From a virus, in the UHGV virus genome UHGV-0258057: 14,263 nucleotides of DNA. One strand, written 5' to 3'. Position 1 is the first letter of the stretch. The number at the start of each line of letters is the position of its first letter. The notes below the pieces were generated by a model. It did no database searches. It was not told where the DNA came from and saw only the letters and a list, made by a program, of their open reading frames with translations. The position numbers and the translations under genes are program-made. Below, in pieces: positions 5,654-10,189 of the stretch.

Positions 5654-6844
5654 TTAATTGCTGTTAACCGAGGTGACCAGATTTGCCAGATATTTATCGG
5701 TAATACGCTGGCGCAGGGTCAGGTTTTCAAGAGGAGGCACCGGGGTATAGTCGTAGTCGATATACAGTTTTCCGGCCTTAAGGGTTTCCGCATCGTTGGA
5801 TTCTTCGCTGAACCAGCAGGTCGCATCCACGATATAGCCGTTTGTTTTCAGCTCACGGAATTTGGCATTGATGCCGTCAACGATGTCGCGAATCAGCGTT
5901 GCGGTGATGGGCTTGTCCACCGCCCACATGTGCGCCTCAGCCATCGTGTCGGCCAGCACCTGCGCGGTGCGGGTGTAGTTTTCAAAGAGGAACAGCGGAT
6001 CATCAGAGCAGGTACGGTTACCCCAGAAGCGGAAACCGTCGCGGCGAATCAGCGTTGTGACGCCTGACTCGTTAAGCAGGTCAGCATCGGTGCCGGACTC
6101 CTGCAAATCCCAGAATACAGATGCGCTGATGCCGGTAACACCGTTCACCCCGACATTGGACAGCGTTTTATGCCAGCCCTGCTCTTGGTCGATTTTAGCG
6201 CGCAGACCCAGCGCACGGGCGGTGGCATACGCGGTGGCGGTGGTGCTGCTGACCGTATCCCATGCGAGGAAATCCGGCCAGATGACCATCAGCTCACGCT
6301 GGCTGAAATTCTGGCGGTAGGCTTTCACCTCGGAAATGGTTTTGCAGCCCCATGCGCTGATATACCCGAAAGCGCGCAGCTTCTGACAGACTGATGCCAG
6401 TGCAACAGCAACCTCTTTGGTGTCCAGTCCCGGCACGCCGAGAATACGCGGTTTAACACCGGTTACCGACTCCGCCGCCAGCAGGGCTTTCAGTCCGGTG
6501 TACTGACCGTTTTCGTCGGTGGTGCCGATGATATTGGAAACGGTCTGCGCGAGTTTCGTTTCCTCGTCTTCGCCGGTGCCGTCTTCCACACGCACGACAA
6601 CGGTGACCGGTTTTGACTGGTCGGCGATAGCCTGCAACGATGCCGCCAGCGTGCCTTTTTTACCGGCCTTTGCAATCGCGCTCTGCACATTGGTAATCAG
6701 CACCGGTTTATTGAGGGGGAAGATTTCCGCATCCGCATCGCTGGCCGTGCAGACCATGCCGACAATGGCCGTGGATACAGTGGAAATGACACGGGTGCCG
6801 TCGTTAATCTCCAGCACCTGCACGCCGTGATGATAGTCACTCAT
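5654..6844 (-). CDS. FI: Contractile tail sheath protein FI, 396 aa
   Basis: A 396-aa ORF, first gene of the FI-FII-E-T-U-D operon; size and position match P2 gpFI. Confidence 0.9.
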   Translation of the reverse strand: MSDYHHGVQVLEINDGTRVISTVSTAIVGMVCTASDADAEIFPLNKPVLITNVQSAIAKAGKKGTLAASLQAIADQSKPVTVVVRVEDGTGEDEETKLAQTVSNIIGTTDENGQYTGLKALLAAESVTGVKPRILGVPGLDTKEVAVALASVCQKLRAFGYISAWGCKTISEVKAYRQNFSQRELMVIWPDFLAWDTVSSTTATAYATARALGLRAKIDQEQGWHKTLSNVGVNGVTGISASVFWDLQESGTDADLLNESGVTTLIRRDGFRFWGNRTCSDDPLFLFENYTRTAQVLADTMAEAHMWAVDKPITATLIRDIVDGINAKFRELKTNGYIVDATCWFSEESNDAETLKAGKLYIDYDYTPVPPLENLTLRQRITDKYLANLVTSVNSN

Positions 6845-6938: not shown

Positions 6939-6971
6939 ATAAAGAAAAGGCGGGCAATCAGATTGCCTGCC
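6939..6971 (-). terminator. Rho-independent terminator closing the cargo operon upstream of the FI promoter
   Basis: A 10-bp stem ggcgggcaat/attgcctgcc (one G-U wobble) with a 3-nt loop at 6949-6971, followed on the minus strand by UUUUCUUUAUCU (plus 6939-6948). It lies about 150 nt downstream of the SIR2-like gene stop. Confidence 0.6.
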
Positions 6972-7123
6972 TTGATTTGTGCTCACTCATTTTCCGACTG
7001 ACAGTTTACATAGCCAAAACGCTATCAAATCTGACAGCCTGCTTTGAGCGAGGAACGGACTAAATGCTCATCTCAGCGGTCAAAGGATATTTTTCTTTGA
7101 CCGTTCTCTTTATAGAGAAAAGA

Positions 7124-8032
7124 TTATCTGTTAGTTTTATTCTGAATATCTTTGATTACATCGAGGTAATACTCTTTTTCCTTCCCTTTGAACACTAACC
7201 CGAAATTATGATTAATTATAACCCCAACACTTTTCAAAAGATCGATTTTTGGTTTGGAAGCAGCGTCATTATAATAATAACCAGGGATGTAATATGTCAC
7301 CTCATATTGCAAGCTTATTTTCTTTGCAATTCTAGTCCTTTCTCTAAATGTAAGTAACCACCAAAGATCAATTTCAACAAAATCCAAATTCAAGCCTAAG
7401 ATATATACATCCTTAGTAAAAAAATCATCGATCCAGCTATTACCAATATCATTTGCTTGCAACCGCTTTGTAAGCGGCTCGTTGAACGATTTATTGGAAT
7501 ACTGACTTCCGGTAGTTGTATACCCCCGCATGCTTTGCAAATAACCACTGTAATGCTCATAGCCAAGAATTATTGAGCTTGGGTTATTCACTGCTCCATG
7601 TATATGCCATATGTTTTTGTTTTTCACCTGATAATGCCTGAAAATATTGTATTTACTTTCTTTTATTACACCTTCATTTTTTAAATCATCAGGCTTGATG
7701 CTGTCGTCTAAACAATATTCAAAAGCTAAATCATAGTTTGTTGTTAAAATATTATTGCATTCTAATCCAATTATTCTTTGATGGATTTCATTTGGCTTTA
7801 TTGTGTTTATCTTTGATGCGATGGAATCTTTTATTTTATTTTCTGAAAATCCATTCGCTTGCTTATTTGAAATATTAAAATAAATCTCTTCATAGGCTAG
7901 TGGAAATGGTTTTTCATGCGTGTCAATTTTTATCCCATATGTTGCCCCTAGGTTATTTAAAACATCAAGCCAAGAATTTCCATTTGTAATATTATTTATG
8001 CCATTTCCAATAAGCAGTGAATAATCGCGCAT
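7124..8032 (-). CDS. Stand-alone SIR2-like (SIR2_2-type, predicted NAD+-hydrolase) protein, 302 aa; candidate defence effector
   Basis: Motifs in sirtuin-fold order: N-terminal glycine-rich LLIGNGINN, then ILTTNYDLAFE (TTNYD signature with the putative catalytic Asn), then WHIHGAVNNPSSIILGYEHY (HG motif with the following strand), then YILGLNLDFVEIDL. Strong RBS AGGGA 5 nt upstream; about 30% GC against about 55% in the flanking phage genes. Confidence 0.6.
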   Translation of the reverse strand: MRDYSLLIGNGINNITNGNSWLDVLNNLGATYGIKIDTHEKPFPLAYEEIYFNISNKQANGFSENKIKDSIASKINTIKPNEIHQRIIGLECNNILTTNYDLAFEYCLDDSIKPDDLKNEGVIKESKYNIFRHYQVKNKNIWHIHGAVNNPSSIILGYEHYSGYLQSMRGYTTTGSQYSNKSFNEPLTKRLQANDIGNSWIDDFFTKDVYILGLNLDFVEIDLWWLLTFRERTRIAKKISLQYEVTYYIPGYYYNDAASKPKIDLLKSVGVIINHNFGLVFKGKEKEYYLDVIKDIQNKTNR

Positions 8033-8262
8033 TTCTATCCCTTATGTTAGATACATTTTTTACACTATACTACTGATATTTATTCTAATACCAGTCATTG
8101 GCATGTTCGACACCGATAAGTTTGATCTTGCCTAGCAACTTATGTTTTCGAATATGCCCCCCCCATGAAAGTCTTAGACAACTATACCTATTAATATCCT
8201 ACAGAGTGCTCTTCGTAGTCAGAAAATGAGAACGAGATAACATCAGTTCATTGGTTTACTCC

Positions 8263-8499
8263 CTACGCAGTTTGTGAGTTAGCACCGTCCGCTTCTGGCA
8301 CGTAGGGGACCAACCAGCTGGTCCTCAGGTCCGATATGAGCGAGAAGCTAAAATTCGCAGTTGTTCCCAAAGTCGATGGAGGAATTTTTAACATTACAGT
8401 GTATTTATCAACGGGAAGCAGGTCACTCTCTATGGTTCTCGCATTATTTGTTAACAAAATAACATATTCTTTTGCTTCATCGATAGTATTGAATATCAT
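8263..8499 (-). CDS. Small hypothetical protein, 78 aa, middle gene of the cargo operon
   Basis: ORF with RBS GTGGGA 5 nt upstream of the ATG. The first ~58 codons are AT-rich like the neighbouring genes; the last ~20 codons read through a GC-rich hairpin element, so the true C-terminus is uncertain. Confidence 0.4.
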   Translation of the reverse strand: MIFNTIDEAKEYVILLTNNARTIESDLLPVDKYTVMLKIPPSTLGTTANFSFSLISDLRTSWLVPYVPEADGANSQTA

Positions 8500-8587
8500 A
8501 AGTTCCCACTTAACATCGATATCTGCGGTAACTGATTAACACAAAGAAATTCATCCAATAGCAGAGAATAACTTTGAGTTTTAGATT

Positions 8588-9430
8588 TTAAAAAACCTTC
8601 AGCCATAATGTTTCGAGCCTTGTGCCAATCACGCCTTTTCCAATGTTATCCAGCCCTCGAACCATTGCGTATAAGCCACCTAATATTTGAATCCCTTCCT
8701 TTACACCTAAAGACGAATAGTCAAAAGTTGGAAAGAGGACGTAATAAGACATAATTACCCCAATACAACACTCGAAAACTCCATAGGAAAGACGGAAATT
8801 TTCTCTGTACCAAAATAGTATGAGTCCTAAAACGGGTAAACCCATCATTGTCCCCCAAACTGTAATGGTAGATACCAGTACTTCCATATTGGAATAGACG
8901 ATGTTTGCGACTAGAGAAGCAAGCCCGCCGAGCACAAAACTGGCTTTTAGGTAACGCTTTTGAGATGAAACAGCTTTTTCTGCTTTCTCTTCTATTTCTT
9001 TATTTAGAAAATCGCCTTTGCTTTCATTTATAAACTCAATGCCAGTCATAGATGTAATATTCCGACTAGCAAGAAAATAAGACAAGGCACGATCATTGGT
9101 CACGACGCAAGGAACTTCTTCTCCTTGCCGTTCTGCGTAAGAAATAGCTATTCGAGCAATATCAAAGTCTGCCCCAGTCAAACGCTGAGCATTTCTATCG
9201 GATTGGAAGATGTCGTTTTTTATTTTTTCAGGCGCTTCAACTATGAGCACACCAGCGGGAATTGACGAGGCCACTAAATCAGTAATATCTGACCATTTGT
9301 TGCTTTTCCCTCTATATGAAAGCTCATGCATCACAGCTCTTGGGATAACTAGCTTCCGATTTCCAGCTCTAGACAATATCTCCGGATGCTGCAATAAAAC
9401 ATTAGTATCTATTATGTATCTACTTGGCAT
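8588..9430 (-). CDS. PIN-domain nuclease fused to a C-terminal ~3-TM membrane domain, 280 aa; candidate defence component
   Basis: The N-terminus YIIDTNVLL...KLVIPRAVMHELS...TNDRAL follows the PIN pattern (first-strand Asp, then Glu, then the C-terminal TND motif), resembling the YlaK/PhoH-like PIN. The C-terminal ~110 aa has three hydrophobic stretches (FVLGGLASLVANIVY..VLVSTITVWGTMMGLPVLGLILFWY; GVFECCIGVIMSYYVLFPTF; IQILGGLYAMVRGL). RBS AGGGA upstream. Confidence 0.55.
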   Translation of the reverse strand: MPSRYIIDTNVLLQHPEILSRAGNRKLVIPRAVMHELSYRGKSNKWSDITDLVASSIPAGVLIVEAPEKIKNDIFQSDRNAQRLTGADFDIARIAISYAERQGEEVPCVVTNDRALSYFLASRNITSMTGIEFINESKGDFLNKEIEEKAEKAVSSQKRYLKASFVLGGLASLVANIVYSNMEVLVSTITVWGTMMGLPVLGLILFWYRENFRLSYGVFECCIGVIMSYYVLFPTFDYSSLGVKEGIQILGGLYAMVRGLDNIGKGVIGTRLETLWLKVF

Positions 9431-9587
9431 AAGCTATCCCTGATACCTTAATTTATCAAATAAAACGGTATGTAAACATATAAAACATAACTTCACAACT
9501 CACTTATCACTGCAAGTTTCCCAACCAGGCAAGCCATGTGCTTAGATATCTGACCTAACGTTTCTAAATTGATGAATGTCCGCTATT

Positions 9588-9628
9588 GGCACAGAGCGGA
9601 CTGTCAGATTAGGCTTTACTCTGTGCCA
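9588..9628. repeat. 10-bp perfect inverted repeat with 21-nt loop, between the G stop and the cargo operon start
   Basis: tggcacagag (9588-9597) pairs with ctctgtgcca (9619-9628). There is no U-run on either side, so it is not a canonical intrinsic terminator; it may be a protein-binding site or the boundary of the cargo insertion. Confidence 0.4.
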
Positions 9629-9661: not shown

Positions 9662-10189
9662 TTATTGCGGCATTTCCGGCCATTCAGGATTTGCAGTATC
9701 CACACGACTGACAAGAACGCTGTAGCGTTCCCATGCCTCCAGTCGACTGCGCTCCTCATCTGTTGCCATATTCAGCCTGACAGCGCGCTCCAGCGGCAAA
9801 ATCACGGATTCGGCTTCGGAAAGCAAAGTTGCCTTTTGTGATTCTGCCAGTTGCTGCTGTTCGTCTGCCGTATAAATCCGCTTAATCACTGCACCATCCT
9901 TAAACATCCATTTACCTGAGTCATCAGCACGCCGGTTGGCAGTAATATCAGGAACCTCAACGACGCTAAAACCTTCAGGATTAAGCGTTGAAGCATCTCT
10001 GGTGATGGCGACAATAATATTATTTTCATCATAAACAATCTTTATTGTCTCTGGCTGAAAATTACTTACTTCCTCATACCAGTTTTTTCCGTCTTCGGAC
10101 CATAACCAGATAACATCAAAATTCTTTGTTAGCTGATATTGCTCTTTTGTTTTTGGATTACCTGACTTAATGTTCTTTAAATGCTGCAT
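9662..10189 (-). CDS. G: Tail fibre assembly protein G (Tfa chaperone), 175 aa
   Basis: A 175-aa ORF immediately downstream of tail fibre gene H; size and position match P2 gpG. Confidence 0.8.

What the first reader, a model, noticed from the sequence alone, without database searches (positions are those of the whole stretch)
8588..9430. PIN nuclease anchored by a C-terminal multi-pass membrane domain
The YlaK-like N-terminal PIN domain is followed by about three predicted TM helices. A membrane-tethered PIN RNase is an unusual architecture; it could act as a membrane-localised effector or sensor, in the way TM effectors do in CBASS or Pycsar. As the first gene of the cargo operon it may be the upstream component of the system.
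Basis: partly seen in the sequence, partly recalled or inferred. Interest (0 to 1): 0.7.

Follow-up and report, generated by a model that had tools for sequence, protein, structure and literature searches.

The report
Membrane-embedded PIN RNase, stand-alone defence candidate
A P2-like prophage carries, in a known anti-phage hotspot, a self-contained gene for a predicted RNA-cutting (PIN) enzyme fused to a strongly conserved, uncharacterised four-helix membrane domain; it looks like an untested one-protein phage-defence system and does not depend on the SIR2 gene beside it.

Summary

The architecture is not a one-off. The membrane domain defines at least 1,809 clusters at 50% identity, and nearly all of the best 150 have the same ~280-aa layout. 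It has no Pfam, PADLOC or PDB counterpart, yet it is more conserved than the PIN domain. About 10% of clusters have lost PIN catalytic residues but keep the membrane motifs.

The "first gene of a cargo operon" reading fails. The cargo is two stacked, independently mobile single-gene cassettes. The PIN-4TM block (8337-9597) is 95.6% identical to a Pectobacterium element that lacks SIR2. The SIR2 block (7041-8310) is 97.4% identical to a Klebsiella locus that lacks PIN-4TM. No neighbour is conserved across about 25 contexts.

The locus is the P2 fun(Z) defence hotspot, and relatives sit beside Gabija, a retron and toxin-antitoxin modules. The best reading is an unvalidated single-protein defence or abortive-infection candidate. 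The mechanism is inferred, not shown.

The parts
8588..9430 (-). PIN-4TM gene (280 aa plus stop codon)
   Evidence: ORF list and translation; 109 homologues, nearly all about 280 aa and full length; purifying selection.
9023..9430 (-). PIN_4 nuclease domain, residues 1-136, predicted cytoplasmic; catalytic D8, E36, D88, D113 and T111
8951..9022 (-). Charged linker helix, residues 137-160, continuous with TM1
   Evidence: AF2 helix 144-180; K+R-rich (3.6 per 15 residues) and poorly conserved.
8891..8950 (-). TM1 (residues 161-180), the least conserved span, anchor-like
   Evidence: Hydropathy; conservation 0.32; linker+TM1 omega 0.11-0.33.
8798..8860 (-). TM2 (residues 191-211) with W192-G-T and the cytoplasmic-end R209
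   Evidence: W192 112/123, R209 122/123.
8732..8794 (-). TM3 (residues 213-233) with R213, the invariant Y216, G217, the membrane-embedded invariant E220, and G224
   Evidence: Y216 123/123, E220 123/123.
8660..8704 (-). TM4 (residues 243-257), short and Gly-rich (Q-I-L-G-G-L-Y-x-M-V)
8591..8659 (-). Conserved cytoplasmic C-tail (residues 258-280) with the R258-G-L-D261-N262-I-G-K265-G motif, W276 and F280
   Evidence: R258 121, D261 113, N262 120 of 123; K+R 5.4 indicates a cytoplasmic location.
9431..9597 (-). 5' non-coding region that travels with the gene (presumed own promoter and RBS)
   Evidence: 95.6% nucleotide identity to Pectobacterium L021 over window 8337-9597. No ORF here, and no consensus promoter called in this stretch.
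8337..8587 (-). 3' non-coding region that travels with the gene; it ends at the junction repeat CTCGCTCA (8337-8344)
9578..9610 (.). Left arm of the imperfect inverted repeat that brackets the hotspot cargo
   Evidence: the repeat finder I1, 33 nt, 76% complementary. Z-region records annotate left and right inverted repeats.
7028..7060 (.). Right arm of the inverted repeat; contains the second CTCGCTCA copy (7045-7052)
7041..8310 (-). Separate SIR2 cassette (CDS 7124-8032, 302 aa, SIR2_2/AbiH-like); not part of the PIN-4TM unit
   Evidence: Pfam SIR2_2 2.8e-10; PADLOC ThsA SIR2 portion 1e-10. 97.4% nucleotide identity to Klebsiella variicola L029, which has no PIN-4TM.
8263..8499 (-). ORF78: an open frame that spans the junction of the two cassettes; probably not a gene
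   Evidence: No family hits; not annotated in RefSeq; its ATG is ATA in Pectobacterium; absent from all other loci.

Best explanation
The gene is a self-contained, horizontally mobile, one-gene module. It encodes an inner-membrane protein whose N-terminal PIN_4 endoribonuclease domain and conserved C-terminal tail both face the cytoplasm, joined by a four-helix membrane domain. In this window it is one of two independent cassettes, the other being a ~300-aa SIR2, stacked in the fun(Z) defence hotspot of a P2-like prophage. Its most likely role is a single-protein anti-phage system of the abortive-infection type. In that model the membrane domain is an obligatory functional partner of the nuclease, not a passive tether. 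Its invariant polar cluster (R209, R213, Y216, E220, R258, D261, N262) lies at the cytoplasmic face next to the PIN domain. It would keep the RNase sequestered or auto-inhibited at the membrane and release or activate it when infection perturbs the membrane or the entry machinery, after which the PIN domain cleaves single-stranded RNA. Shown here: the architecture, topology pattern, conservation, autonomy from SIR2, mobility and genomic company. Inferred: the defence role, the RNA substrate, the trigger, and coupling between the two domains.
For: Architecture and fold. Four-span N-in/C-in topology. Fixed two-domain family: the membrane-domain profile finds 1,809 clusters (399 at E<=1e-10), and almost all of the top 150 are about 280 aa with the domain at about 155-280. 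PIN_4 is detected in 90 of 123 representatives, and divergent members still match a family PIN HMM. Both domains are under purifying selection: PIN omega 0.10-0.18, TM2-C-tail 0.02-0.11. The catalytic tetrad is complete in the window protein and in 87 of 123 representatives. Membrane motifs are near-invariant and are retained at 11-13 of 13 positions in the 12 representatives with two or fewer acidic catalytic residues. Autonomy: a 1,262-bp block containing only this gene is 95.6% identical in a Pectobacterium integrase/relaxase element. No neighbour is conserved in 19 genome loci. There is no upstream antitoxin-like ORF. Defence context: the G-FI interval is the P2 fun locus, called a second defence-enriched hotspot by Vassallo et al. 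(PMC9519451). Gabija lies directly upstream in Chlorobaculum and a type II-A retron lies beside the gene in Pseudomonas. HigB/HTH, RelE/HTH, ParE/Phd, PD-Lambda-2, DRT-type RTs and transposases occur nearby elsewhere. Distribution is patchy: 1 of 5,426 complete E. coli genomes. Precedents: the membrane sequestration of a defence nuclease in SNIPE (bioRxiv 10.1101/2025.11.03.685801) and the PIN-based single-protein defence DS-3 (PMC13092281).
Against: There is no experimental evidence for defence, nuclease activity or membrane insertion. There is no hit in PADLOC v2, and the protein is absent from the DefensePredictor tables that could be searched, some of which were truncated. It is absent from the 50,697 phage records. 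Some contexts are plain housekeeping, such as the trp operon in Aeromonas. Neighbourhood enrichment was not tested statistically. The higher conservation of the membrane domain, and its retention when the PIN site decays, fit a membrane effector at least as well as a nuclease effector. The catalytic-residue counts depend on a MAFFT alignment of divergent PIN domains.
Confidence: 0.5

Rival explanations
1. The membrane domain is the killing effector and PIN is the sensor or trigger. The conserved four-helix domain oligomerises into a leak or pore, or otherwise damages the membrane, and the PIN domain mainly recognises (and perhaps cuts) a phage RNA to switch it on. This is closest to the first reader's 'TM effector' idea, but with no second-messenger step.
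For: TM2-TM4 and the C-tail are the most conserved and most constrained part. They carry an invariant membrane-embedded Glu and Arg residues. 12 of 123 representatives have lost two or more catalytic acidic residues yet keep the membrane motifs. Transmembrane effectors are common in abortive-infection systems (discussed in PMC9122126).
Confidence: 0.2
2. SNIPE-like direct defence. The membrane-resident nuclease waits at the inner membrane and cuts incoming phage nucleic acid at the point of entry, so the cell survives. Membrane anchoring provides the self/non-self discrimination.
For: SNIPE shows that this logic exists: a TM-anchored nuclease that becomes toxic when the TM is removed. Here the PIN active site is placed at the cytoplasmic membrane face by a rigid helix continuous with TM1.
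Against: PIN_4 relatives (SMG6, Rrp44 PIN, PhoH2) cut single-stranded RNA, and SMG6 does not cut ssDNA (PMC5499597). Most coliphages inject dsDNA. There is no DNA-binding module equivalent to DUF4041. The strongly conserved membrane domain is not what one expects for a surface that tracks fast-evolving phage entry proteins.
Confidence: 0.12
3. Two-gene PIN-4TM + SIR2 system, in which PIN-4TM is the upstream sensor or partner of the SIR2 NADase.
For: The two genes are adjacent, on the same strand, with no terminator-like site detected between them. They are always together in the E. coli/Shigella prophage lineage. SIR2_2 proteins also occur within two or three genes of distant PIN-4TM relatives in L017 and L019.
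Against: Each gene occurs alone at 95-97% nucleotide identity elsewhere. The SIR2 block is a discrete 1.29-kb insertion flanked by a CTCGCTCA repeat. There is no SIR2 near PIN-4TM in 22 of about 25 contexts, and no PIN-4TM near close SIR2 relatives. In L023 SIR2 is split while PIN-4TM is intact. In L017 and L019 the SIR2 proteins are of different subfamilies and are separated from PIN-4TM by unrelated genes.
Confidence: 0.05
4. Not immunity. The protein is a selfish toxin or addiction factor for mobile elements, or a membrane-localised RNA-processing factor, that merely hitch-hikes in variable regions.
For: There are no functional data. Some copies sit among housekeeping genes. Other membrane PIN proteins (COG4956) are widespread and have unknown, probably housekeeping, roles. 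PIN domains are classic toxin-antitoxin toxins.
Against: No antitoxin candidate is conserved. The distribution is sporadic with near-identical copies in different genera. The gene repeatedly sits next to validated defence systems and in a validated prophage defence hotspot.
Confidence: 0.13

Closest known systems
PIN_4 / COG1875 nucleases (SMG6/EST1A PIN, Rrp44/Dis3 PIN, bacterial PhoH2/YlaK PIN)
   Same: Sequence profile, fold and the four-acidic-residue active site. The expected chemistry is metal-dependent ssRNA endonucleolysis (PMC5499597).
   Different: There is no PhoH ATPase, exosome or NMD module. Instead the PIN is fused to a C-terminal four-helix membrane domain that has no Pfam family.
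SNIPE (membrane-bound GIY-YIG nuclease defence system)
   Same: It is a single-protein defence in which a nuclease is held at the inner membrane. The logic of membrane sequestration to prevent autoimmunity is a plausible model here.
   Different: SNIPE has one N-terminal TM, DUF4041 and a GIY-YIG DNase. Here there is an N-terminal PIN RNase-type domain and a conserved C-terminal 4TM domain. There is no homology between them, and PADLOC and Pfam show none of the SNIPE domains.
PIN-based defence systems DS-3 and DS-5 (DefensePredictor)
   Same: These are prophage or island-borne PIN nucleases whose catalytic residues are required for defence. DS-3 is a single protein with no antitoxin.
   Different: DS-3 has a split VapC-like PIN. 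DS-5 has PIN_12 plus a DUF5830/AcrIF4-like partner. Neither is described with a membrane domain.
COG4956 (YacL-type) membrane PIN-TRAM proteins
   Same: They combine a PIN domain with four transmembrane helices and have no known function.
   Different: The domain order is reversed (TM at the N-terminus), they have a TRAM domain, and the PIN belongs to PF01850. The window protein scores below the PF01850 threshold (13.3 bits against 23.6) and has no TRAM.
VapBC type II toxin-antitoxin systems
   Same: Both involve a PIN-fold RNase on mobile DNA.
   Different: There is no VapB-like antitoxin gene upstream or any conserved neighbour. The protein is twice the size of a VapC and is membrane-integral.
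Transmembrane effectors of CBASS / Pycsar
   Same: Both have a multi-pass membrane module in a defence context.
   Different: There is no cyclase and no nucleotide-binding sensor domain in the cassette, and no PADLOC match.

Membership tests
PIN domain-like superfamily, PIN_4 (PF13638) | Profile match above the curated threshold | tested here: met
   44.1 bits against 21.9, E=3.3e-11, residues 5-121; 90 of 123 family representatives also hit PIN_4.
PIN domain-like superfamily, PIN_4 (PF13638) | Alpha/beta/alpha PIN fold | tested here: met
PIN domain-like superfamily, PIN_4 (PF13638) | Four conserved acidic active-site residues | tested here: met
   D8, E36, D88 and D113 align with the Rrp44 catalytic positions; all four are acidic in 87 of 123 representatives.
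PIN domain-like superfamily, PIN_4 (PF13638) | Metal-dependent nuclease activity | not testable with these tools
   Requires a biochemical assay.
PhoH2 / YlaK | PIN fused to a PhoH-type P-loop ATPase/helicase | tested here: not met
   NCBIfam PhoH2 scores 14.9 bits against a cut-off of 680, residues 4-40 only; the PHROG PhoH-like hit covers only residues 3-44; the C-terminus is a membrane domain.
VapBC type II TA | Adjacent, co-oriented antitoxin gene conserved with the toxin | tested here: not met
   There is no ORF in the 231-bp upstream region. No neighbour is conserved in 19 loci. ORF78 downstream is not conserved.
CBASS / Pycsar (TM-effector types) | Cyclase gene in the operon and an effector with a nucleotide-sensing domain | tested here: not met
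   There is no PADLOC hit for the protein. The mobile unit contains a single gene.
SNIPE | N-terminal single TM + DUF4041 + GIY-YIG nuclease | tested here: not met
   Pfam and PADLOC scans show none of these domains. The resemblance is in logic only.
COG4956 (YacL-like) PIN-TRAM | Four N-terminal TM helices, PF01850 PIN, C-terminal TRAM | tested here: not met
   The TM helices are C-terminal. PF01850 scores 13.3 bits, below the 23.6 cut-off, and there is no TRAM hit.
Thoeris (for the neighbouring SIR2 gene as a putative partner) | ThsA (SIR2 + SLOG/STALD) together with a TIR-domain ThsB | tested here: not met
   The SIR2 protein matches only the SIR2 portion of the ThsA models, positions 26-178. 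There is no TIR gene in the cargo.
Anti-phage defence system (generic) | Measured protection against phage | not testable with these tools
   Only contextual evidence is available: the fun hotspot and adjacency to Gabija and a retron.

The most novel reading that the evidence does not exclude
PIN-4TM is the founding example of a widespread, uncharacterised one-protein immunity family. In this reading its conserved four-helix domain is a new kind of membrane module, either a sensor of phage-induced membrane or entry events or a co-effector. Its invariant cytoplasmic-face R/Y/E/R/D/N cluster would gate an attached PIN RNase, directly coupling a membrane event to RNA cleavage without any second messenger or partner protein.
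Probability: 0.3. Interest if true: 0.75.

Novelty: new variant of a known kind. Interest (0 to 1): 0.55.

Why it matters
If the gene does defend, it adds a compact (about 1.3 kb) single-gene system to the catalogue, built from a known effector fold and an unknown membrane domain. Membrane-resident nucleases have only just been recognised as a defence strategy (SNIPE). A PIN/RNA version with a highly conserved multi-pass domain would give a tractable model for how events at the membrane are coupled to nucleic-acid cleavage. The work also corrects the annotation: many copies are called 'twitching motility protein PilT'. It defines a Pfam-less domain present in more than 1,800 protein clusters. 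It shows base-pair-level stacking of independent defence cassettes at the P2 fun(Z) hotspot.

Full report
WHAT IS THERE. The window is the tail module of a P2-like (Peduovirus) prophage, with all genes on the minus strand: baseplate J/I, tail fibre H, tail-fibre assembly G (9662-10189), sheath FI (5654-6844), tube, tape measure and gpD. Between G and FI lies a low-GC island, 0.28-0.41 against about 0.55-0.60 in the sheath and tube genes on its other side. It holds three ORFs: the 280-aa ORF of the finding (8588-9430), a 78-aa ORF (8263-8499) and a 302-aa SIR2_2 protein (7124-8032). The G-FI interval is the classical Z/fun variable region. Its flanks match deposited 'Z-region' records that annotate left and right inverted repeats. 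Here the cargo is bracketed by a 33-nt imperfect inverted repeat at 7028-7060 and 9578-9610. Vassallo et al. describe this fun locus as a second defence-enriched hotspot of P2-like phages (PMC9519451). The hotspot analysed by Rousset et al. is the other one, gpA-gpQ (PMC9122126).

The C-terminal 120 residues are hydrophobic, with three strong segments and a fourth that is shorter but conserved. AF2, whether run on the whole protein or on the domain alone (pLDDT 85.5), predicts four long helices after a charged helix that continues into TM1. Across 123 divergent relatives the K+R counts alternate 3.6 / 0.6 / 2.8 / 0.6 / 5.4 in the successive non-membrane segments. This is the positive-inside signature of a four-span, N-in/C-in protein.

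THE FAMILY. A word-seeded search found 109 relatives, almost all 275-290 aa and aligned end to end. They come from Enterobacterales, Pseudomonas, Aeromonas, Vibrio, Hydrogenophaga, Arcobacteraceae, Chlorobaculum and others. A genome scan added Paenibacillus, Dyadobacter, Ignavibacteriota, Bacillota, Acidobacteriota and Reyranella.

An exhaustive HMM search with the membrane domain alone (residues 156-280) against 1.84 billion cluster representatives found 1,809 clusters at E<=1e-3 and 399 at E<=1e-10. Nearly all of the best 150 have the domain at about 155-280 of a ~280-aa protein. Of 123 full-length representatives, 90 hit PIN_4 on their own. Of the two distant members with no Pfam hit, L017 matches a family-specific PIN HMM (E=1e-8). 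L020 matches only marginally (E=0.057) and may be a degenerate PIN. The architecture is therefore fixed and widespread, not a local fusion.

WHICH PART IS CONSTRAINED. Mean column conservation in the 123 representatives is 0.32 for PIN, 0.25 for the linker, 0.32 for TM1, 0.50-0.53 for TM2-TM4 and 0.55 for the C-tail. Y216 and E220 are invariant. R209 (122/123), R258 (121), G224 (121), N262 (120), Y254 (119), R213 (115) and D261 (113) are nearly so. Given the topology, all of these polar residues lie at the cytoplasmic face, and E220 sits about one turn into TM3.

The PIN catalytic positions are well but less strictly kept: D8 117, D113 107, D88 100 and E36 94 of 123. All four positions are acidic in 87 representatives, three in 24, and two or fewer in 12. 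Those 12 still keep 11-13 of 13 membrane-motif residues.

dN/dS at moderate divergence is 0.10-0.18 for PIN, 0.11-0.33 for linker+TM1 and 0.02-0.11 for TM2 to the C-terminus. Both domains are therefore functional. TM1 behaves like an anchor, whereas TM2-TM4 and the tail behave like a domain with a specific job.

IS IT PART OF AN OPERON WITH SIR2? No. In the E. coli/Shigella prophage lineage the two genes are always together. That lineage is rare, with the cargo present in 1 of 5,426 complete E. coli genomes.

In Pectobacterium a 94%-identical protein sits in an integrase/relaxase element without SIR2. Nucleotide identity of 95.6% runs over window 8337-9597 only, which is the gene plus 167 bp upstream and 251 bp downstream. 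It stops at the octamer CTCGCTCA (8337-8344). The Pectobacterium sequence then continues with what in the window lies after a second CTCGCTCA (7045-7052), inside the right repeat arm.

The intervening ~1.29 kb is the SIR2 block. Window 7041-8310 is 97.4% identical to a Klebsiella variicola locus that has SIR2 but no PIN-4TM. Close SIR2 relatives in Yersinia and Proteus also lack PIN-4TM. The ~300-aa SIR2 family is large in its own right, with 1,393 proteins at E<=1e-10.

Across 19 genome loci there is no relative of the window's SIR2 or of ORF78, and all-vs-all comparison of 147 neighbours finds no conserved partner of any kind. In one E. coli copy (L023) SIR2 is split in two while PIN-4TM is intact. 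ORF78 spans the cassette junction, and its ATG is ATA in Pectobacterium, so it is most likely a by-product of the junction. The cargo is thus two independent single-gene cassettes stacked at the hotspot.

One caveat remains. SIR2_2 proteins of other subfamilies lie two or three genes from the two most distant PIN-4TM relatives. In L019 the order is HigB/HTH, PIN-4TM, MTase, ParA-like ATPase, SIR2. In L017 it is SIR2, a kinase-like 802-aa protein, PIN-4TM. I read this as defence-island co-localisation, but synergy is not excluded.

GENOMIC COMPANY. In Chlorobaculum the gene lies inside a conjugative element, directly after a bona fide Gabija pair (GajA E=8.5e-182, GajB E=2.5e-250) and before a RelE/HTH pair. 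In Pseudomonas it lies next to a type II-A retron (RT 7.5e-124, NDT 1.2e-83) in a DUF927/MvaT element. In Halarcobacter it follows RES and DUF6414 proteins. Elsewhere its neighbours include ParE/Phd, PD-Lambda-2, DRT-type RTs, Cas1, MADS components and transposases. In Aeromonas it is a lone insertion between trpA and ydjM. No sequenced phage in the INPHARED set carries it, and one plasmid does. I did not test enrichment statistically.

HOW IT MOST LIKELY WORKS. Established knowledge of PIN_4 enzymes (SMG6, Rrp44 PIN, PhoH2; PMC5499597) predicts a metal-dependent endonuclease acting on single-stranded RNA. The protein has no antitoxin, no partner and no signalling enzyme, so regulation must be built in.

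The most economical model has the four-helix domain and its cytoplasmic polar cluster holding the RNase inactive or sequestered at the membrane. Infection would then release or activate it, through membrane perturbation, the entry machinery or a phage membrane protein. RNA cleavage would follow, probably with an abortive outcome. SNIPE shows that membrane sequestration of a defence nuclease prevents autoimmunity, and DS-3 shows that a lone PIN protein can defend.

The main rival reverses the roles, making the membrane domain the effector and PIN the sensor. It draws real support from the conservation asymmetry and from the catalytically degenerate members. A SNIPE-like cut-at-entry mechanism is possible but fits the RNA-type PIN poorly. 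A non-immune role (addiction or membrane RNA processing) cannot be excluded without experiments.

COMPARISON AND NOVELTY. The protein is a member of the PIN_4 family: the profile, fold and active-site tests were all met. It is not a member of PhoH2, VapBC, CBASS/Pycsar effectors, SNIPE, COG4956 or Thoeris; in each case a defining feature was tested and not met. It is absent from PADLOC v2 and from the literature I could search. It is annotated only as 'PIN domain-containing protein' or, wrongly, 'twitching motility protein PilT'.

I rate it a new variant of a known kind: a membrane-held or PIN-based single-protein defence candidate with an undescribed, highly conserved membrane domain. Interest is moderate (0.55). 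The architecture, autonomy and conservation pattern are solid and give testable predictions, but the function is entirely inferred.

Noticed in passing
window 7041-8310 (CDS 7124-8032, - strand): The ~300-aa SIR2_2/AbiH-like protein is its own mobile single-gene cassette. It is 97.4% identical to a Klebsiella variicola locus and belongs to a family of 1,393 proteins at E<=1e-10. It matches only the SIR2 part of ThsA/LmuA/Dsr models, so it is a candidate stand-alone NADase defence gene.
   Followed up: partly
window 8337-8344 and 7045-7052: The SIR2 block is flanked by a direct repeat, CTCGCTCA (imperfect over 12 bp), and the second copy lies inside the right inverted-repeat arm. This looks like a recombination footprint by which cassettes are stacked at the fun(Z) hotspot.
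   Followed up: partly
window 8263-8499 (- strand): The 78-aa ORF spans the junction of the two cassettes. It has no homologues, is not annotated in RefSeq, and its start codon is lost in Pectobacterium, so it is probably a chimeric non-gene.
   Followed up: yes
L001 (E. coli ZH177, NZ_CM125652.1): In the only complete E. coli genome with this cargo the prophage is decayed. Its gpD-family (late control D) and tail-protein genes, baseplate V gene and terminase gene are annotated as truncated pseudogenes, and the sheath-to-tape-measure genes seen in the window are missing. Both cargo genes are intact, so the cargo has been retained in a 'grounded' prophage.
   Followed up: no
L023 7399-8307: In one E. 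coli copy of the prophage the SIR2 gene is split into 84-aa and 216-aa ORFs, while the PIN-4TM gene is intact.
   Followed up: no
L019 5059-10022; L017 1488-6348: Distant PIN-4TM relatives sit in same-strand, tightly spaced gene rows that also contain a SIR2_2 protein. In Dyadobacter the order is HigB/HTH, PIN-4TM, MTase, ParA-like ATPase, SIR2. In Pyrinomonadaceae it is SIR2, a kinase-like 802-aa protein, PIN-4TM. SIR2 proximity therefore recurs in 3 of about 25 contexts and is unexplained.
   Followed up: partly
protein database entries P0001, P0003, P0040, P0047, P0071: Many members are named 'twitching motility protein PilT' or 'rRNA maturation endonuclease Nob1/FCF1' by their sources. These are annotation carry-overs from the PIN (PilT N-terminus) name, not evidence of function.
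   Followed up: no
P0062 (Aeromonas relative): The precomputed annotation lists an extra Pfam accession, PF26425, beside PIN_4. The local Pfam scan did not reproduce it, so its identity is unresolved; it could be a recent model covering the C-terminal domain.
   Followed up: partly
window 6947-6973 and 7075-7105: There are two stem-loops downstream of SIR2. One is a canonical GC-rich hairpin followed by TTTTCTTT on the minus strand, which is probably the terminator that insulates the cargo from the late sheath operon. No terminator-like site lies between PIN-4TM and SIR2.
   Followed up: no
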